DNA of 12,227 nt from a virus. Taxonomy: Duplodnaviria > Heunggongvirae > Uroviricota > Caudoviricetes. The notes beneath the pieces were generated by a model. That model saw only the letters and a program-made list of their open reading frames with translations. It ran no database searches and had not been told where the DNA came from. The stretch covers positions 1 to 12,227 of IMG/VR virus record IMGVR_UViG_2671180903_000014. One strand, given 5' to 3'. The position numbers were made by a program, and so were the translations under genes. This document shows, piece by piece, positions 1 through 9,208 of the stretch (position 1 is the stretch's first letter; each line of letters starts with the position of its first letter).

Positions 1-1461
1 ATGAAAAAATTACTGCATCTTTTTTTCCCGCTCTCGCTGCGGGTACGTTTTCTGTTAGCAACGGCAGCAGTAGTATTGGTGCTTTCGCTTGCCTACGGAA
101 TGGTTGCGCTGATCGGTTATAGCGTCAGTTTCGATAAAACCACGTTTCGGCTGTTACGTGGCGAGAGCAATCTGTTCTATACCCTTGCGAAGTGGGAAAA
201 CAATAAGTTGCATGTCGAGTTACCCGAAAATATCGACAAGCAAAGCCCCACCATGACGCTAATTTATGATGAGAACGGGCAGCTTTTATGGGCGCAACGT
301 GACGTGCCCTGGCTGATGAAGATGATCCAGCCTGACTGGCTGAAATCGAATGGTTTTCATGAAATTGAAGCGGATGTTAACGATACCAGCCTCTTGCTGA
401 GTGGAGATCATTCTATACAGCAACAGTTGCAGGAAGTGCGGGAAGATGATGACGACGCGGAGATGACCCACTCGGTGGCGGTAAACGTCTACCCGGCAAC
501 ATCGCGGATGCCAAAGTTAACCATTGTGGTGGTGGATACCATTCCGGTGGAGCTAAAAAGTTCCTATATGGTCTGGAGCTGGTTTATCTATGTGCTCTCA
601 GCCAATCTGCTGTTAGTGATCCCGCTGCTGTGGGTCGCCGCCTGGTGGAGTTTACGCCCCATCGAAGCCCTGGCAAAAGAAGTCCGCGAACTGGAAGAAC
701 ATAACCGCGAATTGCTCAATCCAGCCACAACGCGAGAACTGACCAGTCTGGTACGAAACCTGAACCGACTGTTAAAAAGTGAACGCGAACGTTACGACAA
801 ATATCGTACGACGCTCACCGACCTGACCCATAGTCTGAAAACGCCACTGGCGGTGCTGCAAAGTACGCTGCGTTCTCTGCGTAGTGAGAAGATGAGCGTC
901 AGTGATGCTGAGCCGGTAATGCTGGAGCAAATCAGCCGCATTTCACAGCAAATTGGCTACTACCTGCATCGTGCCAGTATGCGCGGCGGGACATTGCTTA
1001 GCCGCGAGCTGCATCCGGTCGCCCCACTGCTGGACAATCTCACCTCGGCGCTGAACAAAGTGTATCAACGCAAAGGGGTCAATATCTCTCTCGATATTTC
1101 GCCAGAGATCAGCTTTGTCGGTGAGCAGAACGATTTTGTCGAGGTGATGGGCAACGTGCTGGATAATGCCTGTAAATATTGCCTCGAGTTTGTCGAAATA
1201 TCTGCAAGGCAAACAGACGAGCATCTCTATATTGTGGTCGAGGATGATGGCCCCGGTATTCCCTTAAGCAAGCGAGAGGTCATTTTCGACCGTGGTCAAC
1301 GGGTTGATACTTTACGCCCTGGGCAAGGTGTAGGGCTGGCGGTAGCCCGCGAAATCACCGAGCAGTATGAGGGTAAAATCGTCGCCGGAGAGAGCATGCT
1401 GGGCGGTGCGCGGATGGAGGTGATTTTTGGTCGCCAGCATTCTGCGCCGAAAGATGAATAA
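1..1461 (+). CDS. phoQ: Sensor histidine kinase PhoQ of the PhoP/PhoQ two-component system
   Basis: 486-aa ORF with N-terminal transmembrane segment, periplasmic acidic patch EDDDDAE, second transmembrane segment, HAMP region, H-box [12 protein letters not shown] and ATPase motifs (DNACKY, DDGPGI, GQGVGL); matches enterobacterial PhoQ from memory. Confidence 0.95.
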
Positions 1462-1972
1462 ATATGTCCTTTTATCACCACAGCAAGGCAACCAATTGAT
1501 TTAATTAAACAACTCACACTGCAAAAAGTGCTAAAAACAGCAAATTGACTACACCATTAACTACACCGTTCGGTGCACTGTATGAAACAACGTTGAACAA
1601 ATAGACACAAGAAATATACAGGCGGGTAATCTTTCCAGGGGGAAGCGCACCAATTCATGAGGGGCGTTAATGTCGATATGGGGATCCCCATAACGGGGCT
1701 ACCAGATTTTTTTTCCGGTTAACTGTTAATCAGGCTGGTGGGCTTTACCTGTTCGGTAGGTGTTATGATTATCGTAATACCTTTCCCCCAATGGGGTAAA
1801 AGCTCCAACCGTAACGATGTTCGTTATGGTTGCCTTGATGGTCTGAGTGGTCATTTTGACCATTCAGCCAATGACCTTAATCAGAATTTTTCGCTAAAAA
1901 ATGACGTTGGCCACGTCATCCGGAAAGCACAAAATCACGTCGATTTTTAATGAACGGTTAAACCGTCTTTTT

Positions 1973-2007
1973 GTCACGGTGTGTCACTGGTTGTCACTCT
2001 CCGTCAC
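1973..2007. repeat. Four direct copies of (T)GTCAC spaced exactly 10 bp apart
   Basis: GTCAC at 1973, 1983, 1993 and 2003, in non-coding DNA downstream of phoQ; resembles tandem arm-type recombinase sites (lambda Int arm consensus contains AGTCAC) or another phased binding array. Confidence 0.6.
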
Positions 2008-2096
2008 GATTGAGGTGGTGGACATTCTGCCCGACCGCGCATTTTTGCGCTATCGGGAATATCAAACAGTTACCGCGCCGACTTCCTCAAATTGAG

Positions 2097-2239
2097 GTTT
2101 CCGAAAATATCAGCGGGTTAGCGATTAAGCTGACGAGTAATTAAACTGCGAAAATTTCGTAGTTTGTGACTATCTGAAAGATAGTCGGTTGTTCCGGCCT
2201 CAGCCGTTGGCTGTTTCCGAAAATATCAGTAGGTTAGGC
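2097..2239. repeat. Pair of ~26-bp direct repeats (GTTTCCGAAAATATCAG..GGTTAG) 115 bp apart
   Basis: 2097-2124 and 2212-2239 differ at 2-3 positions; palindromes lie between them (GACTATCT-gaa-AGATAGTC at 2169-2187; CCAAAGCTCA-aaaa-TGAGCTTTGG at 2240-2263). Confidence 0.6.
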
Positions 2240-2277
2240 CAAAGCTCAAAAATGAGCTTTGGAACAATATCAACAAG

Positions 2278-2559
2278 TTACCGCCGTAACCGCTCCGGCT
2301 TCTTCCAGTGGTACGTAATTTTCTCCGTTTCCCGATACAGTGCCACGCGGCGATTGTAGGCCAGCATTTCAAGAACGCGGATCCGTATGTTGCGCATATC
2401 CACATCATTAAGCTGGATACCATCACGGCGCATCACCTCAGCAACAACACGCGCATAATTTTCGGCTGTCACGCTGTCCGGCTGCGTGGCCTGTTCGTCA
2501 GTCTGCTGGCTGATTCCACCAGCACGGCGGATTAATCCCAGTATTTCGGCTTCTGTCAT
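2278..2559 (-). CDS. Hypothetical 93-aa protein
   Basis: ATG at 2559 with upstream GGGTG; charged, protein-like composition; the overlapping plus-strand ORF looks like antisense. No family recognised. Confidence 0.4.
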   Translation of the reverse strand: MTEAEILGLIRRAGGISQQTDEQATQPDSVTAENYARVVAEVMRRDGIQLNDVDMRNIRIRVLEMLAYNRRVALYRETEKITYHWKKPERLRR

Positions 2560-2592
2560 TGTGCACCCATCGTTCTGATTGTCTGGTGTCGT

Positions 2593-2795
2593 CGGGTCCT
2601 TCCTGGAATTATGGACCCGTTACGGGGCGGCGACCTCGCGGTTTTTATCTGTTTATGAAAATTTTCCGGCAAAAGTCAGATCCGTTCTTCTTCTCTGTAA
2701 CAGACTGTTTAACAATGAAAATATTAAAAAAAGAAAGGATCTGACACGAGGCATTTTAGCCAGAAAATGCCATTATCAGATCCTTTCTCATTTTT
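2593..2795 (+). other. Lambda-type cos site 'cos-A' (cosQ, cosN, cosB) in plus orientation
   Basis: GGGTCCTTCC..GTTACG|GGGCGGCGACCT|CGCGGTTTTT..TTATGAAAATTTTCCGG..CCGTTCTTCTTC closely follows the lambda right-end/left-end junction as recalled; the 12-nt cohesive-end sequence is at 2625-2636. Three R-site-like repeats GATCC(G/T)TTCT follow (2681-2695 plus, 2730-2745 inverted, 2777-2789 plus), with an A/T-rich IHF-like stretch between the first two. Confidence 0.8.
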
Positions 2796-2815
2796 GTTCA
2801 ATAATTGCGCGTCTG

Positions 2816-3358
2816 TTACTCGCCTTTCTTCTGTAGCAACTTTTCCGGTACGTTTCCGGTTGTTTCTTTCAAGTAATCAGCCAGTATCTGTGGGAGGTTG
2901 TCGGCAACTCTGGCACTGGCATTACAGGCTTTAACCACTTCCCTTTTAAGCCTATCCAGCATGGCGGGGGTAATCTGTGGGAAGCTCCTTTGCATAGTAA
3001 GCGGGAGGCTGTCCATGATTGATGAAATCTGACTCGCCAGCTTTGAAAGCGCGTACAGGCAAAACTCAGTATCAATCACGTCACCGCGATCGCGCTCGTT
3101 TTTAAGTTCCTGCGCCTCCGCCTGTGCTGTCAGTAATCTGATCCTGACTCGTAAGAGTTCATCATCATCAATATCGCCTTTGTCGTTTGTAAGCTGGCTA
3201 ATTGCATTGTTAACCCTATTGTCTATCACGCTGGCAACATCATAAAACGCCTCACGGCCTTTACGTTCAACGGGAGTCACTCCCCACTTGTCGAACGCTG
3301 TCGCACTTACACGGCAGCTTTTCGCCATGTTTTTTTTGTTCATCAGGTGCGATTTCAT
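2816..3358 (-). CDS. Terminase small subunit, lambda Nu1-like
   Basis: Residues LLTAQAEAQELKNERDRGDVIDTEFCLYALSKLASQISSIMDSLPLTMQRSFP align with lambda Nu1 (LTRAQADAQELKNARDSAEVVETAFCTFVLSRIAGEIASILDGLPLSVQRRFP); N-terminus NKK..W..G..PV matches the Nu1 DNA-binding region. Start may be ATG 3358 or ATG 3343. Confidence 0.85.
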   Translation of the reverse strand: MKSHLMNKKNMAKSCRVSATAFDKWGVTPVERKGREAFYDVASVIDNRVNNAISQLTNDKGDIDDDELLRVRIRLLTAQAEAQELKNERDRGDVIDTEFCLYALSKLASQISSIMDSLPLTMQRSFPQITPAMLDRLKREVVKACNASARVADNLPQILADYLKETTGNVPEKLLQKKGE

Positions 3359-3399
3359 TAATACACCAACTTAATTACTGCTTCAGGTTGGTGTATTGT

Positions 3400-3534
3400 T
3401 TGCATCTTTCCCTTTTTATTCATAAAGATAGATCAAACAACGAAACCACCACCCCCCCCCTGAAAAGGCTCATAAATAGCGAAAAACCGCTAGGTCGCCG
3501 CCCCGTAACGGGCCATAATTCCAGGAAGGACCCG
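3400..3534 (-). other. Second lambda-type cos site 'cos-B' (cosQ, cosN, degenerate cosB) in minus orientation
   Basis: Minus strand reads GGGTCCTTCCTGGAATTATGGCCCGTTACG|GGGCGGCGACCT|AGCGGTTTTTCGCTATTTATGA and then diverges, including a G9 run; cohesive-end sequence at 3492-3503. The 53-bp stretch 3482-3534 is an inverted repeat of 2593-2646 with one mismatch and one 1-bp indel. Confidence 0.75.
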
Positions 3535-3535
3535 T

Positions 3536-3557
3536 AAAAAAGCCGGATTTCTCCGGC
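3536..3557 (-). terminator. Rho-independent terminator after the 137-aa gene
   Basis: Minus strand GCCGGAGAAATCCGGC hairpin followed by TTTTTT; 6 bp past the stop of the 137-aa ORF. Confidence 0.7.
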
Positions 3558-3563
3558 CTTGTC

Positions 3564-3977
3564 TCAGATGGTTTTCAGTATGCGATCGATGTCGCCGTCA
3601 TCGCCCTGGTTTCTGCCATCGTATGCCATGCCAGCTGATACGGCTTGCGGGCTGTGCATGTCCATAAAGTTTTCAAAGGCTGCGGTAAGTTCCGGCGCAA
3701 CCTTCGGACGTTCCTGCTCTATGGTCATGCTAAGGATGCTTTTAGCCGTACCAACATCGATACAAGGCACGTTTGCCATTGCACGCAACAGCGGCTGATA
3801 GTCTTTATGCTCATGAAGCGCCATAATCGCATCAGCGCGCGGCTTGTCCTGCTCTTCCAGTTTGTTTAGTTGATATACGGCCTCATAGGTTGATAAACCT
3901 CTGTCAGCCATTGCCCGCGCTTCGACTTTAAATTTACTCGCCAGCGGTAGCGTCATGATGCTTTCATTCGTTGCCAT
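3564..3977 (-). CDS. Hypothetical 137-aa acidic protein, last gene of the capsid operon
   Basis: Strong RBS (AGGGGGA) before ATG 3977; 12 bp after the gpD-like stop; followed by a terminator. No family recognised; not lambda FI or W by recalled sequence. Confidence 0.55.
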   Translation of the reverse strand: MATNESIMTLPLASKFKVEARAMADRGLSTYEAVYQLNKLEEQDKPRADAIMALHEHKDYQPLLRAMANVPCIDVGTAKSILSMTIEQERPKVAPELTAAFENFMDMHSPQAVSAGMAYDGRNQGDDGDIDRILKTI

Positions 3978-3989
3978 CGTTCCCCCTGC

Positions 3990-4325
3990 TTATCGGGCCA
4001 GCGGCTGAACGGATACGCCGGAACCCGCAAAGGCGGCGCATTTTTTCGCATCGGTGTCGACGCTCTCAGGCCAGTTAACGGCGGCAATATTGAATATCCC
4101 CGTCTTGTAACACTGTGCTGATTTCTGCTTTGACGTGCCCACAGGGTACGAGGTCAGATAAACAGCCTTGCCAGATTCCTGACCATCCCACGGCTTAAAC
4201 TCGCCATTGTCTGCCAGCATCAGCGGGGTAAATTCCTGAATAACGCCAGCATCAGCGGCAAAATGTACCAACGTCGTGGATACCTGCTGACTGCCTGCAA
4301 ATAACTCAATGTATGGAGTGTCCAT
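3990..4325 (-). CDS. Head decoration protein, lambda gpD family
   Basis: 111 aa; TPLML, WDG, YKTGIF, WPE and AFAG motifs align with lambda gpD (TPLML..WDG..YKSGTF..WPE..AFAG); RBS GGGGGGA. Confidence 0.85.
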   Translation of the reverse strand: MDTPYIELFAGSQQVSTTLVHFAADAGVIQEFTPLMLADNGEFKPWDGQESGKAVYLTSYPVGTSKQKSAQCYKTGIFNIAAVNWPESVDTDAKKCAAFAGSGVSVQPLAR

Positions 4326-4337
4326 AGAATCCCCCCG

Positions 4338-5393
4338 TTAACCAATTTTGACGGTAACAAATTTGCGAATATCTGCCGGTACCGGCTGCGGTGCACTGTG
4401 TGTCTGCACGTACTCAATCGCCGGATCGCCGTCCTCAATCCAGTTTTTCGGGTAAAACATGTTTTGTGTTGCGCCCGTTCTTACCGCTTCCTGATCCATT
4501 ATCGCACCATAGGCCACCAGCCCTTTATTGTTGGTGTTACCCAGGACCAGCAAATCAGGCTCAAGGAAATATTTTTCGGTACCATCGCTGTCAGTGTATT
4601 TGCCGGAATAGACGATAAGGGCCAGATCACCAAGATAGCCTTTAAAGCTCACCACTTCGCCCAGGTTTTTACAGGCCAGTTCGGCGGCGGATTCTGAACC
4701 ACGGGAAAGATCGTACAGCTCACGGAATTTTTTAAAGCTGCCTAATGTGCGCCATACCTCAGCGCCCATAATCATGACGTTTGCGGGGCAACCAGCCTGA
4801 TCAGCATAAAGCTCGATGTCATAGATTGGGTCGTGCATGTCTTTATCCTGCTCGGACCATTTTTTACCCTTGGCCTGCTCTATGATGCAGTTTTCCGGTA
4901 TTTTCCAGTCGATTTCATAGCGTTCTATGCCTTCGCCCTCAATGATGTTTTTTCCGGTCGTTACCGCATTCACCGCCAGCCATTCCACGCGTGCCTTAAT
5001 GGCGTTTATCTGGCGGCGCATGTTGCCAGTAATCAGGCGCATACGGCGATAGGTAGGGTCGTTAAGCTGTGCCGGATCTTCTCCAGCCATGCGCATGATG
5101 GTTTTCGTTGGATCGATTTCGTGCTTTGGCTTCATGTAGCCAGGTTTGATTGTGCTGGTTTCGTACCCTTTATCGCGCTGAACCTGGCTACCCACCATAG
5201 GCGAACAAAACGCCGACATGGTGACTTCTTCAATGTCCAGGGTATCCAGCATGATGTTTTGCGTGCTGAATGTCGCCACGTTCGGGAAAAACAGCGTGGT
5301 AAACAGAGGGCTGAATTTAAAATCCGCAATATCCCCGCGATTCAGGTACATGAAAAGCTGGTTAGTGTTAAGTGCCGTTGCTTTGCCTGCCAT
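4338..5393 (-). CDS. Major capsid protein, lambda gpE family
   Basis: 351 aa; collinear with lambda gpE (FKF.PLF..LFF, PGY.KPKHE, DP.YRR.R, RDK..DP..DIE.YA, YKG..GD.A.VYSG, VLGNT, YPKNW, GDPA.E); RBS GGGGGTGA. Confidence 0.9.
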   Translation of the reverse strand: MAGKATALNTNQLFMYLNRGDIADFKFSPLFTTLFFPNVATFSTQNIMLDTLDIEEVTMSAFCSPMVGSQVQRDKGYETSTIKPGYMKPKHEIDPTKTIMRMAGEDPAQLNDPTYRRMRLITGNMRRQINAIKARVEWLAVNAVTTGKNIIEGEGIERYEIDWKIPENCIIEQAKGKKWSEQDKDMHDPIYDIELYADQAGCPANVMIMGAEVWRTLGSFKKFRELYDLSRGSESAAELACKNLGEVVSFKGYLGDLALIVYSGKYTDSDGTEKYFLEPDLLVLGNTNNKGLVAYGAIMDQEAVRTGATQNMFYPKNWIEDGDPAIEYVQTHSAPQPVPADIRKFVTVKIG

Positions 5394-5599
5394 TATTCAC
5401 CCCCATAATTTTTATGCATCCCAAGCGCCGCAAGTAAATAAGAGCGTACAAGTGAACCTATCGACGGCTCCGGCGTCATCAGCGGATCCAGTCCAGCCGC
5501 AACGCCAGCTTCATAGTTTTTTTTGTGGCGCTGCTTGAGCACCTCCACGATTTCGGGGCTTATGTACACCGAAACACCGCCTTTTTTCTCTTCAGCCAT
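5393..5599 (-). CDS. Hypothetical 68-aa protein, first gene of the capsid operon
   Basis: ATG at 5599 preceded by AAGAGGAA; its stop overlaps the capsid start codon (TAATG), suggesting translational coupling. No family recognised. Confidence 0.45.
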   Translation of the reverse strand: MAEEKKGGVSVYISPEIVEVLKQRHKKNYEAGVAAGLDPLMTPEPSIGSLVRSYLLAALGMHKNYGGE

Positions 5600-5633
5600 A
5601 GTAAGAAATTCCTCTTCGACTAAAAAAATCATA

Positions 5634-5684
5634 ACTGGATGTTTATCCAGTCCTGATTATAATCAGAATTGCATTTTATGCAAT
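5634..5684 (-). promoter_or_regulatory. Sigma70-like promoter overlapped by three adjacent palindromic operators
   Basis: Minus-strand -35 TTGCAT (5683-5678), 16-bp spacer, -10 TATAAT (5661-5656). Palindromes: ACTGGAT-gttt-ATCCAGT (5634-5651), CTGATTATAATCAG (5653-5666), ATTGCAT-ttt-ATGCAAT (5668-5684). Confidence 0.55.
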
Positions 5685-5764
5685 GATATTGAGTTATGTT
5701 GCAAATTATGAAATGATTATCCCGATCACGAACGCCAGTGCATCCAAAAACCTCATATGCAAAA

Positions 5765-5830
5765 GCCCGATAAGAACCCTCTGACCTTATCGGGCTTTTT
5801 TTGGGCGCAAAAAAGCCGGATTGCTCCGGC
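5765..5830. terminator. Tandem terminators between the 74-aa gene and the capsid promoter
   Basis: Hairpin GCCCGATAAG..CTTATCGGGC with T7 on the plus side and A4 on the other (5765-5802), then minus-strand GCCGGAGCAATCCGGC plus T6 (5809-5830). Confidence 0.65.
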
Positions 5831-5850
5831 TATGTGTGCTGTGTGCTGGC

Positions 5851-6075
5851 TCAGTCTCTGATCTCTTTCAGAAATTCTATCAATGCATCTATCTGTTCAG
5901 GATTTACCGCCAGCATTTCACCGGATAGAGCACATCTCACAAAACCATGCTGATCCTTTTCAATCAGTGCGCCCGTCTCCAGGAATGCGCGGTAATCATT
6001 GATGCTCATCGTCTCCATGTTGTCAGCATGGTATTTATCACGCTGTTTTAATATCTCATCAAATTTCATCGGCAT
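5851..6075 (-). CDS. Hypothetical 74-aa protein, monocistronic between terminators
   Basis: ATG at 6075 preceded by AGAGGAAAAA; terminators on both sides. No family recognised; only one Cys, so not an Ogr/Delta zinc finger. Confidence 0.5.
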   Translation of the reverse strand: MPMKFDEILKQRDKYHADNMETMSINDYRAFLETGALIEKDQHGFVRCALSGEMLAVNPEQIDALIEFLKEIRD

Positions 6076-6171
6076 TGTTTTTTTCCTCTGTTGTGTCTGT
6101 TTGTTTCAGATAGTAACTATGCCTGACCGTGACGAAAACCCGGTAATGCGCCATACCGTTTCAACTGGTGC

Positions 6172-6194
6172 AAAAAAAGCCGGATTTCTCCGGC
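6172..6194 (-). terminator. Rho-independent terminator after the PerC-like gene
   Basis: Minus strand GCCGGAGAAATCCGGC followed by T7; near-identical to the terminators at 3536-3557 and 5809-5830. Confidence 0.7.
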
Positions 6195-6201
6195 TGTTTG
6201 A

Positions 6202-6474
6202 TTAGCTGTCCTGGTAATTGCGCCATATTTCATCACCAGCACCATCTATACCCATTTCGGCATAAGTGCGATCGACTGCCTTTTTCAGGTCTCCGAAATT
6301 ATCCGGCGGCTCCGGTGCCCTCTGTGCCTTCCTTGAACATTCCAGCCGTCGCATCGTGATGTGATGCCGTTCCTTGTCTGTCTCCACCAGCTGCATGACT
6401 TCACCCCATCGCGCCGCCGCCCTCCGGTAAAAGCCTTTCGCCTCCAGTTCCTCCGCTATGCGGTCATGTACCAT
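6202..6474 (-). CDS. Small PerC-family-like regulator (about 90 aa)
   Basis: Start taken at ATG 6474 (MVHDRIAEELEAKGFYRRAAARWGEVM), 11 nt after the SSB stop with GGGGGTG as RBS; the A..LE..G.YRRAA.RW motif resembles PerC-family proteins from memory. The longer 130-aa ORF call would overlap SSB. Confidence 0.45.
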   Translation of the reverse strand: MVHDRIAEELEAKGFYRRAAARWGEVMQLVETDKERHHITMRRLECSRKAQRAPEPPDNFGDLKKAVDRTYAEMGIDGAGDEIWRNYQDS

Positions 6475-6484
6475 CGTCACCCCC

Positions 6485-6895
6485 TCAGAACGAAATATCA
6501 TCACCGTAAGAGTCATCGCCTCCCGCTGGTGGCTGATTACCCTGTGTGCCTGTGGTTTTGCGTCTGTTCCCGCCTGGACGTGCCGCGCGGGCACTGATTA
6601 CGCTGTCTGCGATAACCTGCCAGCCCTGCCGCGTTTCTCCGTTCTGTCCGGTCCACTGGCTTACCTGCATCGTGCCGGATACGCTGGCAACATCGCCTTT
6701 TTGATGTTTAGCCAGGAAGTCGGCCTGTTTGCCAAATGCGATGACCGATAACCATAACGTCGCCTGTCCGTCCTGTGCCTGGCTGCATGGCAAAGATACC
6801 GCCATACGCGCCAGCGTCATCGGTGTGCCCTTGCTGGTCTGTTTTACCTGCGGGTCGTCCACCAGCCGCCCGTAAGCGGCTATCTGTGCCGTCAT
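6485..6895 (-). CDS. Single-stranded DNA-binding protein, SSB-like
   Basis: 136 aa; OB-fold-like N-terminal region, Gly/Pro/Gln-rich linker and acidic C-terminal tip GDDISF (compare E. coli SSB DDDIPF). Confidence 0.65.
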   Translation of the reverse strand: MTAQIAAYGRLVDDPQVKQTSKGTPMTLARMAVSLPCSQAQDGQATLWLSVIAFGKQADFLAKHQKGDVASVSGTMQVSQWTGQNGETRQGWQVIADSVISARAARPGGNRRKTTGTQGNQPPAGGDDSYGDDISF

Positions 6896-7143
6896 AATTC
6901 CACCTCTCCGGTTTTAACGTTGATGGTTGTTACCTGTTCCGCTTCGGCAATCTCCCGTTCTGTCAGCGTGGCAAAGTTTGCCGCCGCCGTGGTCATGAAT
7001 GCGCTTATCAGGTCGGGATGTTCCTTCGCGTATCCTTCCCGCGTGTGGCGGTCTATCGTTCTGATTGCCACCTTTAAGGTGTGCTCAGTCATGTCTAACG
7101 CTTTATATTTTGGCTCTGTTCTGTCTCTGCGTTTTTGGGTCAT
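6892..7143 (-). CDS. Hypothetical small protein between the origin and ssb
   Basis: The longest ORF begins at a GTG (7173) inside the iteron array; ATG 7143 or ATG 7092 are more plausible starts. Stop overlaps the ssb start (ATGA). Confidence 0.35.
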   Translation of the reverse strand: MTQKRRDRTEPKYKALDMTEHTLKVAIRTIDRHTREGYAKEHPDLISAFMTTAAANFATLTEREIAEAEQVTTINVKTGEVEL

Positions 7144-7149
7144 TTCTCG

Positions 7150-7350
7150 CAACCTCTCACTTTTTCGCCTCACTTTTTCAAGCGTCTCACTTCGTCGCAG
7201 TTGGGATTTTCGGTTTTTCTATGTGTGTGTTTCATAAGTATTTTTTTACCCCTCACTTTTGAGGATGTATACAGGTCGAAAAGTGAGGGAGAGCGGGCTA
7301 ATTTTGGCCCTCTTTCTATCCCCCTCGCTTTTGCTCCTCACTTTTATAGC
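7150..7350. repeat. Iteron array with a central A/T-rich stretch; candidate replication origin
   Basis: Seven copies of CCTCAC(T/G)TTT (7156, 7169, 7186, 7250, 7323, 7337 direct; 7279 inverted) flanking an A/T-rich stretch at 7201-7248, immediately 3' of the rep gene. Confidence 0.6.
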
Positions 7351-8743
7351 GGCGCTACATCATCCCCATCGATACGAATAACCCCATCTTTTTCCAGCTT
7401 GTACAGCCAGCGCCGGAAGTTTTTCATTTCATACCCCAGCTTTTTCATGTCATCACGTAACAGCGGGATCGTGCACTTGTCGCCGTTCTGTGTGCGTGAA
7501 CGGATGCACCCCCATAGCGCGGTATGGTTTTCCGTCTTGTTCCCTGCCTCCTCGATGCGCTCCAGTTCAACAGGAGGGCGCGGATCATCCACCACCACCA
7601 GCGACGTGATTAATTCACCGTCAGCGTCGGTAAAAAGCTCCACCACGCGTAAGTCATATGCGGCTTCTTTGAGTTCCTCCGCGTCCTTCATTTTGGTGCA
7701 TGAGATAACCAGCGCTTCGCTTCCTGCGTCCTCCCTGCGTATCCGGTATTCAGCATCCAGCGAAGCACGAAATGCACTGGAACCGCGCGCGCCTTTCGTC
7801 TCATCCTTGCCGGAATGGTGAACCACCAGCACCGTGGCCCCTGTGCGTCGTTTCAGTTCGTCACAACCACGGATAAACGCCCCATATCACGGGAATCATT
7901 TTCATCATTCCCACCAAAGCAACGCGCCAGCGTATCCAGAATAATCATGCGTACAGGTTTACCCGTTTCCCGCTCCACCTGACGGGCAGCGATAACCATT
8001 TCATCAACATCAAGCGGGGCAGCCGGAAAGATGGGGCGGTTTACCAGATACAGATTTTTCACCTGCTCATCGTGCACAACCTCCCAGGCTTTTACACGAC
8101 GCGGAACACCTATACCGCCTTCACCAACCACATAGAGAACCGCACCATGTGCAACCCTGCGGCCTCCCCACTGGCGACCAGTGGCAACATGGCACGCCCA
8201 CGATCCGGCAAGGAATGATTTATAGGACCCGCTAGCCCCGTATATGCTGCATAGCGATACCGCCGGAATAATCCCCTTAACCACGTAATCCAGTTGCGTG
8301 TCGTATCCGGTAGATCCAACGCTCATCGGTAGCGTGGTTTTTCGCTGGTGGTTTTTTTCTTCCGCCGGCTCTTTCCCGCGCACCCGTTCCAGGTATTCGC
8401 GCCAGTTCTCCCGCATATGGCTGTGCATCCCTTCGGGGTAATAATTCGCATCAGTTACACCCGCCGCCGCCAGCTTGTGCGCAATGGCATTAATATTTGA
8501 TGGCCTGATGTGGCCTGCCTTGTACAGCCGGACACAATAGCGCCCCTCGTCGATGATTCTCAGGTCTGCCAGTTCATCCAGTTGATCATCAGCCAGCACA
8601 ACGGGAGGCACATTATCGCCAGCCAGTCGCCCGTCCTGTTCCTGCCACTGTTTCGCATGTGCCCAGGCATCACTACCCGCAAAAATAATGACTTCGGTCA
8701 TCTTGTCGTAAGGCTGTTTTTTTAAGTTCGGTGCGCTTTTCAT
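7344..8743 (-). pseudogene. RepA-like AAA ATPase (RecA-fold replication helicase) split by a frameshift
   Basis: The upstream ORF (8743-7853) ends ..ILDTLARCFGGNDENDSRDMG; the downstream ORF continues in another frame with AFIRGCDELKRRTGATVLVVHHSGKDETKG. Joined, they give the typical DEN..M......L....G..VL.VHH..K motif. The frames meet in the C4/G4 run at 7880-7883; one extra G would restore a ~470-aa protein. Confidence 0.75.
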
Positions 8744-8761
8744 TTCTTGCCCCTGAATCCG

Positions 8762-9208
8762 TTAAAATCTGGCCTGAACTGCCGGAGGCGTAGGCCATTC
8801 AATATCTGGCGCACTGGAGGTATCAACCAGCTCCAGTGCATCCAGATAATCCAGCCACAAATTATATTGCGCCAGTTCCTCACCTTTCAGACGACCAATA
8901 GCGGCTTTACCGGGCCATTGCTTACTGTTCATGTATTCGTTGGCCTGGTTAATTAGTAGCTGTCTTTCTGATTCAGTAATTTCAATAAGCTCTTCATGCG
9001 TGGGTGGAGGAATATCTGCCCACGCAGGCAGCCCATCATCTCCGGCAATACGGATTTTTCCTTGTGGCGGTTCAGCCATAAACTCACTGATAATATTTTG
9101 ATTTACTTCCTTAGCGTCTGATAAATCCCATCCCTCTGATTTATATTTATCAATCATATCCACAGGGAAAAAAGCATTATGCCTTGCGCTATAAACATAT
9201 TCGTTCAT
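8762..9208 (-). CDS. Tail fibre assembly protein (Tfa)
   Basis: N-terminus MNEYVYSARHNAFFP and C-terminus ..VDTSSAPDIEWPTPP match Tfa proteins (lambda Tfa ends ..VDTSTAPDIEWP); RBS AGGGTGA before ATG 9208. The longest ORF starts at a GTG (9217). Confidence 0.85.
   Translation of the reverse strand: MNEYVYSARHNAFFPVDMIDKYKSEGWDLSDAKEVNQNIISEFMAEPPQGKIRIAGDDGLPAWADIPPPTHEELIEITESERQLLINQANEYMNSKQWPGKAAIGRLKGEELAQYNLWLDYLDALELVDTSSAPDIEWPTPPAVQARF

What the first reader, a model, noticed from the sequence alone, without database searches (positions are those of the whole stretch)
1462..2277. About 800 bp of repeat-rich non-coding DNA follows phoQ
There is no convincing ORF here, but there are four GTCAC repeats at exact helical phase, a pair of 26-bp direct repeats sharing GTTTCCG with lambda terminase R-site cores, and several perfect palindromes. 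This looks like a protein-binding landscape (attachment-site arm, packaging or regulatory region) or a non-coding RNA locus, and it probably holds the chromosome-to-element joint.
Basis: seen in the sequence. Interest (0 to 1): 0.5.

Follow-up and report, generated by a model that had tools for sequence, protein, structure and literature searches.

The report
Non-coding end of a phage satellite
The 800 bp after phoQ is the non-coding outer end of a known type of phage satellite (an EcCICFT073-like PICI): it holds the chromosome/element joint and the integrase attachment arm, then a patchwork of hairpin repeats, a conserved Chi site and a GTCAC repeat array of unknown binder, while the real packaging (cos) sites lie further inside the element.

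Summary
The interval has no credible ORF. It has four GTCAC at exact 10-bp spacing (0 of 200 shuffles), a 25-nt direct repeat and many hairpins (folding z = -7.6 and -4.8).

It is the integrase-distal end of an EcCICFT073-family phage-inducible chromosomal island (PICI) inserted in the phoQ-roxA spacer.
- The joint is the 10-bp core AAATATGTCC (1460-1469).
- About 280 bp of attachment arm follow: an IHF-like site, two tandem 12-bp arm-type repeats, three 10-bp-phased GAnACAA boxes (also upstream of alpA in full copies), a 22-bp palindrome and a conserved Chi site.
- The remaining ~500 bp is a mosaic. It holds a PICI-linked repeat family (short hairpin plus IHF-consensus motif; 41 variants in related islands) and an optional GTCAC module. 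That module is found in 256 of 5426 E. coli genomes and is absent from the mobilisable EcCICFT073.

It is not a packaging site. Two inverted lambda-type cos sites sit at 2593-2800 and 3380-3534, flanking a Nu1-like terS. No Rfam family matches.

Overall this is a known kind of element. The small new points are the repeat family, the oriented Chi and the unassigned GTCAC iterons.

The parts
1460..1469 (.). att core and chromosome/element joint (AAATATGTCC). It overlaps the last two bases of the phoQ stop codon.
   Evidence: The window matches the empty K-12 site up to 1469 and diverges after it. The same core lies at the roxA side of the full-length copies L001 and L002.
1489..1501 (-). IHF-consensus site (AATCAATTGGTTG), 20 bp from the core.
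   Evidence: Matches WATCARNNNNTTR. The sequence is conserved in phoQ-site and tqsA-site islands. Binding was not tested.
1544..1567 (+). Two tandem 12-bp repeats (ATTGACTACACC ATTAACTACACC), taken to be integrase arm-type sites.
   Evidence: Repeat family D8. The pair occurs exactly once in each arm of L001, L002 and L004, in the same orientation. ACTACACC x2 is invariant in islands at four different attB sites.
1584..1610 (+). Three GAnACAA boxes in exact 10-bp phase, candidate binding sites for the excision factor/regulator AlpA.
   Evidence: The same phased boxes lie in the int-proximal arm, in the int-alpA spacer (5 units) and just upstream of alpA in L001, L002 and L004. The assignment to AlpA is an inference.
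1674..1695 (.). 22-bp palindrome CGATATGGGGATCCCCATAACG; binder unknown.
   Evidence: It is a perfect palindrome in L007, L211 and L212 and is kept at the sequence level across islands with different attB. There is one copy per island.
1734..1741 (+). Chi site (GCTGGTGG), oriented to be read by RecBCD arriving from the cosN(+) end 0.89 kb to its right.
   Evidence: It sits 262-264 bp from the element's left boundary in all four elements compared (the window and L001, L002, L004). 34 of 38 distinct island tails have Chi in this orientation and 7 have it in the other.
1806..1872 (.). Two long imperfect hairpins (1806-1832 and 1838-1872), a module shared with islands at other sites.
   Evidence: The module is also present in L006, a yejO-site island.
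1896..1919 (-). Weak terminator-like hairpin plus U-run for leftward (late-operon) transcripts.
   Evidence: Folded: dG -10.1 kcal/mol, z = -1.5. The consensus scanner did not list it; my reading, not tested, is that it counts G-T pairs as stem and so uses up the T-run.
1973..2007 (+). GTCAC x4 iteron array at 10-bp phase; binder unknown.
   Evidence: Among 9 variants (29 copies) all 20 GTCAC positions are invariant and 5 of 15 spacer positions vary. The array always lies in island tails. In L007-L009 it has 5 units and starts 6 nt from the stop of the 93-aa ORF.
2037..2072 (+). Repeat unit 1: hairpin 2037-2050 plus IHF-consensus motif 2060-2072.
2085..2120 (+). Repeat unit 2: hairpin 2085-2097 plus IHF-consensus motif 2108-2120.
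2143..2186 (.). Two further palindromes (2143-2161 and 2168-2186).
   Evidence: and read directly from the sequence.
2200..2236 (+). Repeat unit 3: hairpin 2200-2212 plus IHF-consensus motif 2224-2236. It holds the second copy of the 26-bp repeat.
2239..2280 (+). Repeat unit 4: 10-bp-stem hairpin 2239-2262 plus IHF-consensus motif 2268-2280. The motif overlaps the stop codon of the 93-aa ORF.
   Evidence: The hairpin folds at dG -15.4 kcal/mol, z = -6.4.
2278..2559 (-). Last gene of the island (93 aa, phrog_1561), occupying the same position as the last gene of EcCICFT073. Function unknown.
   Evidence: No Pfam, NCBIfam or PDB match. The AlphaFold2 model is three helices at pLDDT 67 with no fold match.
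2593..2800 (+). Lambda-type cos site: cosQ-like stretch, cosN 2625-2636, and altered R-like elements at 2676-2692, 2728-2745 and 2776-2794.
2816..3358 (-). Nu1-like small terminase gene.
   Evidence: Pfam Phage_Nu1, E = 2.3e-23; phrog_57.
3380..3534 (-). Second, inverted cos site (cosN 3492-3503), upstream of terS in the lambda arrangement.
   Evidence: CFT073 has the same inverted pair.

Best explanation
Window 1462-2277 is the integrase-distal, non-coding end of an EcCICFT073-family PICI, a phage satellite, integrated in the 75-bp phoQ-roxA spacer.

Shown:
- The joint is the 10-bp core at 1460-1469.
- The next ~280 bp is conserved among islands that use different chromosomal sites. It carries the same tandem 12-bp repeats and 10-bp-phased GAnACAA boxes as the integrase-proximal arm.
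- A Chi octamer sits in one orientation in nearly all related tails.
- The right ~500 bp is a mosaic of modules. Each module is present or absent between islands.

Inferred:
- The left part is the attachment arm. The tyrosine integrase (12-bp repeats), IHF (1489-1501) and the AlpA excision factor (GAnACAA boxes) would assemble on it for integration and excision.
- The Chi site stops RecBCD when it enters the free cosQ-side end left by cos cleavage 0.89 kb away. This would protect the island's concatemer, because the island has no RecBCD inhibitor of its own.
- The hairpin plus IHF-motif units form the structured 3' flank of the leftward late operon. They would insulate or stabilise transcripts and, being repeated, drive module shuffling.
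- The GTCAC array is a helically phased landing pad for a DNA-binding protein that is still unknown.

The interval is not a packaging site.
For: Identity and joint:
- The gene content and order match CFT073's EcCICFT073 and about 12-kb islands at the same site.
- The empty site and both junctions were aligned.

Attachment arm:
- The 12-bp repeat pair occurs once in each arm of three full copies.
- The arm is conserved across four attB sites.
- GAnACAA boxes also lie in the int-alpA spacer.
- An IHF-consensus site lies next to the core.

Chi:
- 11 octamers in the window against 0.30 in shuffles.
- The three full-length copies carry 1 Chi per 0.86-1.19 kb and the window's truncated copy 1 per 0.81 kb, against 10 in 46.9 kb of flanking chromosome.
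- 34 of 38 tails carry Chi in the orientation that PMC12315714 describes as active relative to cos.

Mosaic right half:
- Alignments show module-sized indels.
- 41 repeat-unit variants have 17 distinct 5' stem arms but fixed geometry.
- The GTCAC module is in 256 of 5426 genomes and absent from CFT073.
- Conservation within the array falls on GTCAC and not on the spacers.

Not packaging, not coding, not a known RNA:
- cos lies elsewhere.
- No ORF or RNA family fits.
Against: - No protein-DNA binding, transcript or recombination assay could be run. The assignments to Int, AlpA, IHF and RecBCD rest on motif, position and analogy.
- The window holds neither int nor alpA. Island homology stops at 8765, where e14 prophage DNA begins, and the helicase gene has an in-frame stop. 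This copy is probably defective, so the arm may no longer function here.
- The related tails are homologous, so the counts 34 of 38 and 9 variants are not independent events.
- Chi octamers in the island interior show no orientation bias.
- The hairpins lack U-tracts, so they are not classical terminators.
Confidence: 0.8

Rival explanations
1. The right half (about 1750-2277) has no function of its own. It is recombination debris: scars and duplications left by repeated module exchange between islands, tolerated because the island end is free of genes.
For: - Each module is present or absent between closely related islands.
- The 19-bp repeat at 2058 and 2266 looks like a duplicated copy of the junction at the ORF's 3' end.
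- The mobilisable EcCICFT073 lacks the GTCAC module.
- A working marked derivative is named c1504-c1507::cat, that is, marked in the stretch after rppA (c1503). The exact endpoints are not given.
Against: - Hairpin stems differ in sequence but stay perfectly paired, at a fixed 8-10 nt from the IHF-like motif, in most of the 41 variants.
- GTCAC positions are invariant while the spacers vary.
- The fold is far below shuffles.

These patterns suggest selection rather than drift.
Confidence: 0.3
2. The interval encodes a structured RNA. This could be a long 3' UTR of the leftward late operon, a read-through tail of the phoPQ mRNA, or a small RNA. In that case the hairpins act at the RNA level.
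For: - Strong excess of local structure on both strands, more on the + strand (z = -7.6 against -4.8).
- Several stems contain G-U pairs that work only on the + strand (read from the sequence).
- The array and units lie between the ORF stop and a weak leftward terminator-like hairpin.
Against: - No Rfam match.
- No sigma-70-like promoter was found inside the interval on either strand.
- Loop sequences are not conserved among units.
- Exact 10-bp phasing is a duplex-DNA property.
- Module-level indels would break any long-range fold.
Confidence: 0.15
3. The GTCAC array imitates binding sites of a helper-phage protein. One candidate is the origin iterons (TGTCACG at 10-bp spacing) that lie inside O-like replication-initiator genes of some E. 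coli lambdoid phages. Another is lambda-type integrase arm sites (CAGTCACTAT). The array would then titrate or borrow that helper protein.
For: - A scan of viral contigs for four GTCAC at 10-bp spacing found many arrays. The largest family lies inside O-like initiator genes, next to a P-like loader or a DnaB-like helicase.
- Named E. coli phages carry that sequence.
- The unit TGTCAC(G/T), the 10-bp spacing and the copy number (4-6) are the same.
- The island's own origin iterons are different (AAGTGAG).
Against: - The similarity is limited to a 6-7-bp core, which my search pattern selected for.
- blastn of the array finds nothing in 50,697 phage records.
- Presence of the array does not track the type of replication or packaging gene.
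- No co-occurrence test could be run.
Confidence: 0.1
4. The interval is a packaging region: the 26-bp repeats or the GTCAC array are terminase-binding sites (cosB- or pac-like).
For: - GTTTCCG is shared with lambda R3.
- Phased repeats would suit wrapping of DNA around a small-terminase ring.
- A different GTCAC array sits just upstream of a portal gene in an unrelated viral contig (L012).
Against: - Complete lambda-like cosQ-cosN-cosB sets lie at 2593-2800 and 3380-3534, and the first has its own R-like elements. Published work shows that such cos sites suffice for plasmid transfer (PMC6092414, PMC6739421).
- The repeats lie about 400-530 bp from cosN, behind an ORF.
- EcCICFT073 has no GTCAC array yet is packaged efficiently.
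Confidence: 0.04

Closest known systems
EcCICFT073, the prototype Gram-negative cos-type PICI of E. coli CFT073 (Fillol-Salom 2018, 2019)
   Same: - Same insertion site (phoQ-roxA) and same att core.
- The first ~285 bp of the tail are nearly identical.
- Same gene order: SSB, PerC, capsid, decoration, 137-aa protein, packaging-specificity gene, 93-aa ORF.
- Same pair of inverted lambda-like cos sites.
   Different: - The window carries a 180-aa Nu1-like terS where CFT073 has rppA.
- The window's tail is about 250 bp longer, with the GTCAC module and extra repeat units.
- The window copy has a nonsense-interrupted helicase gene, and it is cut off from its int end by a junction with e14 DNA.
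Lambda attP arms (heterobivalent tyrosine integrase with IHF and Xis) and the P2 Cox / P4 Vis box arrays
   Same: - A short core flanked by arms.
- Tandem arm-type repeats in both arms.
- An IHF-consensus site next to the core.
- Helically phased direct repeats that recur at a regulator's promoter, as for a combined excisionase and regulator.
   Different: - The repeat sequences are unrelated (ATTAACTACACC and GAnACAA).
- No binding data exist for this island family.
- The resemblance to Cox and Vis boxes comes from my own knowledge, not from a test here.
Chi-rich lambdoid phages that lack a recombination module (phage LLS class; Zheng et al. 2025, PMC12315714)
   Same: - No recombination or RecBCD-inhibitor gene turned up among the island's genes (by PHROG/Pfam scans of the window and by the RefSeq annotation of three full copies).
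- Chi density is several times the host's.
- A Chi site in the active orientation lies close to the cosQ-side end.
   Different: - This is a satellite, not a phage, and that paper does not mention satellites.
- Interior Chi sites show no orientation bias, perhaps because there are two inverted cos sites.
BIME / RIP elements of E. coli (REP palindromes interleaved with IHF sites at operon 3' ends)
   Same: Extragenic arrays of short palindromes alternating with IHF-consensus motifs, placed downstream of an operon.
   Different: - No sequence similarity to REP.
- The units occur in only 23% of E. coli genomes, median one place per genome; wherever the context was examined they lay in island tails.
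- The resemblance is one of architecture only, and rests on my own knowledge.

Membership tests
EcCICFT073-type (Gram-negative, cos) PICI | Integration at a specific attB, flanked by direct repeats of the core. | tested here: met
   The window's left junction was aligned with the empty K-12 site, and both junctions were aligned in the full copies. The window's own right junction is not in the window.
EcCICFT073-type (Gram-negative, cos) PICI | Tyrosine integrase plus an AlpA regulator at one end. | tested here: inconclusive
   Both are present in the orthologous full copies L001, L002 and L004. They are absent from the window, where island homology ends at 8765 against e14 DNA.
EcCICFT073-type (Gram-negative, cos) PICI | Own primase/helicase replicon, with origin iterons 3' of the rep gene. 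| tested here: met
   Helicase-primase match to phrog_2850. AAGTGAG iterons at 7160-7343. The gene carries an in-frame stop at 7853-7855.
EcCICFT073-type (Gram-negative, cos) PICI | Lambda-like cosQ/cosN with a divergent cosB, and a packaging-specificity gene (Rpp or TerS). | tested here: met
   Two exact cosN 12-mers. blastn match to lambda cos. R-like elements CAGATCC(G/T)TTCT in place of lambda's CGTTTCC(G/T)TTCT (and reading of the sequence). Nu1-like terS.
EcCICFT073-type (Gram-negative, cos) PICI | Induction and high-frequency transfer by a helper phage. | not testable with these tools
   Shown for EcCICFT073 in the literature, not for this copy.
attP arm of a heterobivalent tyrosine integrase | Arm-type repeats present in both arms and distinct from the core. 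| tested here: met
   The pair ATTRACTACACC x2 occurs once in each arm of L001, L002 and L004 and at window 1544-1567.
attP arm of a heterobivalent tyrosine integrase | Binding by Int, IHF and the excision factor. | not testable with these tools
   Only motifs were found: IHF consensus and GAnACAA boxes shared with the alpA upstream region.
Lambda cosB R sites (applied to the 26-bp repeats) | About 16-bp R consensus; three sites with the middle one inverted; within about 50-170 bp of cosN. | tested here: not met
   Only GTTTCCG is shared. The repeats lie about 400-530 bp from cosN, behind an ORF, and both are in direct orientation. A set that does fit lies at 2676-2794.
Iteron-type replication origin (applied to the GTCAC array) | Iterons next to the cognate rep gene and required for replication. 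| tested here: not met
   The island's origin iterons are AAGTGAG, next to the helicase gene. The array lies about 5 kb away. It is absent from the replicating EcCICFT073 and does not track rep type.
Known structured RNA family (Rfam) | Covariance-model match at the gathering score. | tested here: not met
   No match at gathering score. The only match inside the interval has E = 4.3.
Chi recombination hotspot | Exact 5'-GCTGGTGG-3', oriented towards the DNA end where RecBCD enters. | tested here: met
   The octamer is at 1734-1741 on the top strand, with cosN(+) to its right. The orientation rule is taken from PMC12315714. Activity was not tested.

The most novel reading that the evidence does not exclude
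The tails of enterobacterial PICIs carry dedicated cis-acting devices that nobody has described.
- A GTCAC iteron array that imitates the origin iterons, or the integrase arm sites, of lambdoid helpers. It would capture a helper DNA-binding protein, either to interfere with the helper or to borrow its function.
- A Chi site aimed at the cos end, which lets a satellite with no RecBCD inhibitor survive RecBCD during concatemer packaging.
Probability: 0.12. Interest if true: 0.6.

Novelty: new member of a known kind. Interest (0 to 1): 0.33.

Why it matters
- It settles what lies after phoQ: an accessory satellite end, not core DNA, a packaging site or a gene. This helps place island borders correctly, since many viral-contig predictions stop at the last ORF and drop this tail.
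- It gives testable candidate sites for Int, IHF and AlpA in a satellite family whose recombination sites are not described in the papers I read.
- It extends to satellites the recent finding that lambdoid phages without recombination genes are rich in Chi.
- The GTCAC iterons and the hairpin/IHF repeat family are small open questions rather than surprises.

Tried and rejected
- Coding potential. The ORFs of 44-70 aa have no Pfam hit. blastx finds only the homologous non-coding DNA. The 44-aa minus-strand ORF at 1557-1691 is broken by a 2-nt gap in L212 and a 24-nt deletion in L211. Rejected.
- tRNA or tmRNA target site: none found.
- Known RNA families: none.
- Replication origin at the GTCAC array: rejected, because the origin iterons differ.
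- The 93-aa ORF as the binder of the array. There is no family or PDB match. The AlphaFold2 model has low confidence (pLDDT 67) and Foldseek finds nothing with E below 1. Left undecided.
An alignment query would have reached further.
- The PDB search with the 180-aa terS found neither RppC nor Nu1 structures. Only Pfam links it to Nu1.
- The promoter and terminator scan found nothing above chance inside the interval.
- The exact endpoints of the published c1504-c1507::cat allele could not be recovered.

Full report
**What was checked**

The window starts with phoQ (1-1461, +). The interval 1462-2277 contains only ORFs of 70 aa or less. None matches Pfam. A blastx of the interval against all ORFs of the related loci finds only translations of the same non-coding DNA. 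Orthologous copies carry frame-breaking indels. There is no tRNA and no Rfam match at gathering score; the only match inside the interval has E = 4.3.

- GTCAC starts at 1973, 1983, 1993 and 2003. None of 200 shuffles gives such an array, even with two mismatches allowed.
- A 25-nt repeat lies at 2097-2121 and 2213-2237, 92% identical.
- There are many palindromes.
- The interval as a whole folds far better than shuffled versions, z = -7.6 (+) and -4.8 (-).

**What the element is**

megablast against 5426 complete E. coli genomes finds no identical copy. It does find about 12-kb islands between phoQ and roxA that are 92-95% identical over the stretches that align. Their annotation reads integrase, AlpA-type regulator, Icd-like protein, DUF4222, RepA-type helicase, SSB, (PerC), major capsid protein, head decoration protein, small terminase and a 93-aa ORF. 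CFT073 carries such an island at this site. Its position, integrase-alpA-primase module and capsid and decoration genes fit EcCICFT073, the prototype Gram-negative cos-type PICI (PMC6092414, PMC6739421).

The window's genes match this layout: 93-aa ORF 2278-2559, Nu1-like terS 2816-3358, 137-aa protein, decoration protein, capsid protein, PerC, SSB, and a helicase gene split by an in-frame stop.

**The joint and the attachment arm**

K-12 has 75 bp between phoQ and roxA. The window follows K-12 up to 1469 and then diverges. The same core, AAATATGTCC, is found at the roxA side of the full-length copies. The chromosome/element joint therefore lies at 1460-1469, at the very left edge of the finding.

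The next ~280 bp are almost identical in the CFT073, RM10466 and O157-type copies. They are largely kept in islands at yifB and tqsA; the clpS-site island shares only the 12-bp repeat pair and the phased boxes. This stretch contains:
- an IHF-consensus site at 1489-1501;
- two tandem 12-bp repeats at 1544-1567, which occur exactly once in each arm of three full copies, in the same orientation;
- three GAnACAA boxes in exact 10-bp phase at 1584-1610. The same phased boxes lie in the integrase-proximal arm, in the int-alpA spacer (five units) and just upstream of alpA. That distribution is typical of a combined excision factor and regulator, such as the Cox boxes of P2 (my own knowledge). AlpA is the obvious candidate; this is an inference;
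- a 22-bp palindrome at 1674-1695, one copy per island.

**Chi**

The octamer GCTGGTGG lies at 1734-1741 on the top strand. The window has 11 Chi octamers against 0.30 in shuffles. The three full-length copies carry one per 0.86-1.19 kb, and the window's truncated copy one per 0.81 kb, against 10 in 46.9 kb of flanking chromosome.

The tail Chi sits 262-264 bp from the element's left boundary in all four elements compared. Of 38 distinct island tails, 34 have Chi in this orientation and 7 have it in the other. This is the orientation read by RecBCD coming from the right, where cosN(+) lies 0.89 kb away. It is the rule described for lambda and for Chi-rich lambdoid phages that lack recombination genes (PMC12315714). 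That paper does not mention satellites.

A second conserved Chi, on the other strand, lies 1021-1022 bp beyond the inverted cosN. I infer that these sites protect the free cosQ-side end of the island's concatemer. Two caveats apply: the tails are related by descent, and the interior Chi sites show no orientation bias.

**The right half**

From about 1750 the copies differ by module-sized indels. Two features stand out.

First, a repeat family. Each unit is a short perfect hairpin (4-11 bp stem, 3-5 nt loop) followed 8-10 nt later by WATCARNNNNTTR, the IHF consensus.
- The window has four units, with motifs at 2060, 2108, 2224 and 2268. The whole window has 8 matches to the motif against 1.16 expected.
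- Across related islands there are 41 distinct units in 115 copies. They have 17 distinct 5' stem arms but the same geometry.
- The unit occurs in 1239 of 5426 genomes, with a median of one place per genome. It is therefore not a general E. coli repeat; in every context I examined it lay in an island tail.
- The hairpins lack U-tracts. The only terminator-like structure for leftward transcripts is weak (1896-1919, dG -10.1 kcal/mol).

Second, the GTCAC module.
- It occurs in 256 of 5426 genomes. In every context examined it lay in an island tail, including the tails of capsid-forming islands. In L007-L009 it has five units and starts 6 nt from the stop of the 93-aa ORF.
- Among nine variants all 20 GTCAC positions are invariant and 5 of 15 spacer positions vary. 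The hypergeometric p is about 0.009, without correction for relatedness.
- It is absent from EcCICFT073 and the O157-type copies. It is therefore not needed for mobilisation by lambda or phi80.
- It is not the island's origin, whose iterons are AAGTGAG at 7160-7343.

**Who might bind GTCAC**

A scan of viral contigs shows that GTCAC arrays at 10-bp spacing are common. The largest family lies inside O-like replication-initiator genes of E. coli lambdoid phages. The lambda integrase arm-site consensus also contains GTCAC (my own knowledge). These are leads only. The shared core is 6-7 bp and was selected by my search pattern, and blastn of the array finds no phage match.

The neighbouring 93-aa protein has no family or PDB match. 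Its model is three helices at low confidence, with no fold match.

**Packaging lies elsewhere**

Exact lambda cosN 12-mers lie at 2625-2636(+) and 3492-3503(-), within an inverted repeat of about 80 bp that flanks terS. The first copy aligns to lambda cos. It has three R-like elements in the lambda arrangement but with an altered 5' half (2676-2692, 2728-2745, 2776-2794). The same inverted pair flanks rppA in CFT073 and occurs in most related loci. [quoted passage not shown] The GTTTCCG shared between the 26-bp repeats and lambda R3 is therefore most likely coincidence.

**State of this copy**

Island homology ends at 8765. From 8767 the window matches the right end of prophage e14 (tfa, stf, pinE, mcrA). 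No complete E. coli genome shares this junction. Together with the nonsense-interrupted helicase gene, this suggests a rearranged, defective island. If so, the arm may be a relic in this genome.

**Verdict**

The finding is real and is explained as the outer, non-coding end of a known satellite family. It is a new member of a known kind, with three modest open points: the oriented Chi, the hairpin/IHF repeat family and the unassigned GTCAC iterons.

Noticed in passing
window 2593-2800 (+) and 3380-3534 (-): Two lambda-type cos sites in inverted orientation flank the Nu1-like terS. Both have an exact cosN 12-mer. The first has R-like elements reading CAGATCC(G/T)TTCT where lambda has CGTTTCC(G/T)TTCT.
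   Followed up: partly
window 1462-8765; L001, L002, L004: Chi octamers are 4-6 times denser in these islands (1 per 0.8-1.2 kb) than in the flanking chromosome (10 in 46.9 kb). One Chi lies 1021-1022 bp from the inverted cosN in three copies, inside the capsid gene.
   Followed up: partly
window 8765/8766: Island homology stops exactly at the DUF4222 stop / helicase start. It is followed by the right end of prophage e14 (tfa, stf C-terminus, pinE, mcrA-like). This rearrangement junction is not seen in any of 5426 complete E. coli genomes.
   Followed up: partly
window 7344-8743 (-): The RepA-type helicase/primase gene is split by an in-frame stop at 7853-7855 into ORFs of 296 and 162 aa, so the island's replicon is probably dead. 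L008 is annotated with the same kind of defect.
   Followed up: no
window 7160-7343: Probable island origin: six AAGTGAG-type iterons, one of them inverted, just 3' of the helicase gene.
   Followed up: no
L026 4705-4739; L018 1968-2002 and about 30 other viral contigs: TGTCACG repeats at 10-bp spacing lie inside O-like replication-initiator genes of lambdoid phages (for example Escherichia phages Evi, Tritos and vB_EcoS-813R8). They are presumably the origin iterons of that initiator class.
   Followed up: partly
L012 543-577: A different GTCAC array (TGTCACCGTT x4) sits between a 169-aa ORF with no family match and a portal gene, in a satellite-like viral contig.
   Followed up: no
L001 22185-22484 (-); L004 9194-9240 (+): Two clusters of 10-bp-phased GAnACAA boxes lie between int and alpA in full-length islands. 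They match the boxes in both attachment arms.
   Followed up: partly
L131-L210 (IMG/VR contigs): Many predicted viral contigs for these islands end exactly at the stop codon of the 93-aa ORF. The non-coding tail and the true att boundary are therefore routinely trimmed off.
   Followed up: no
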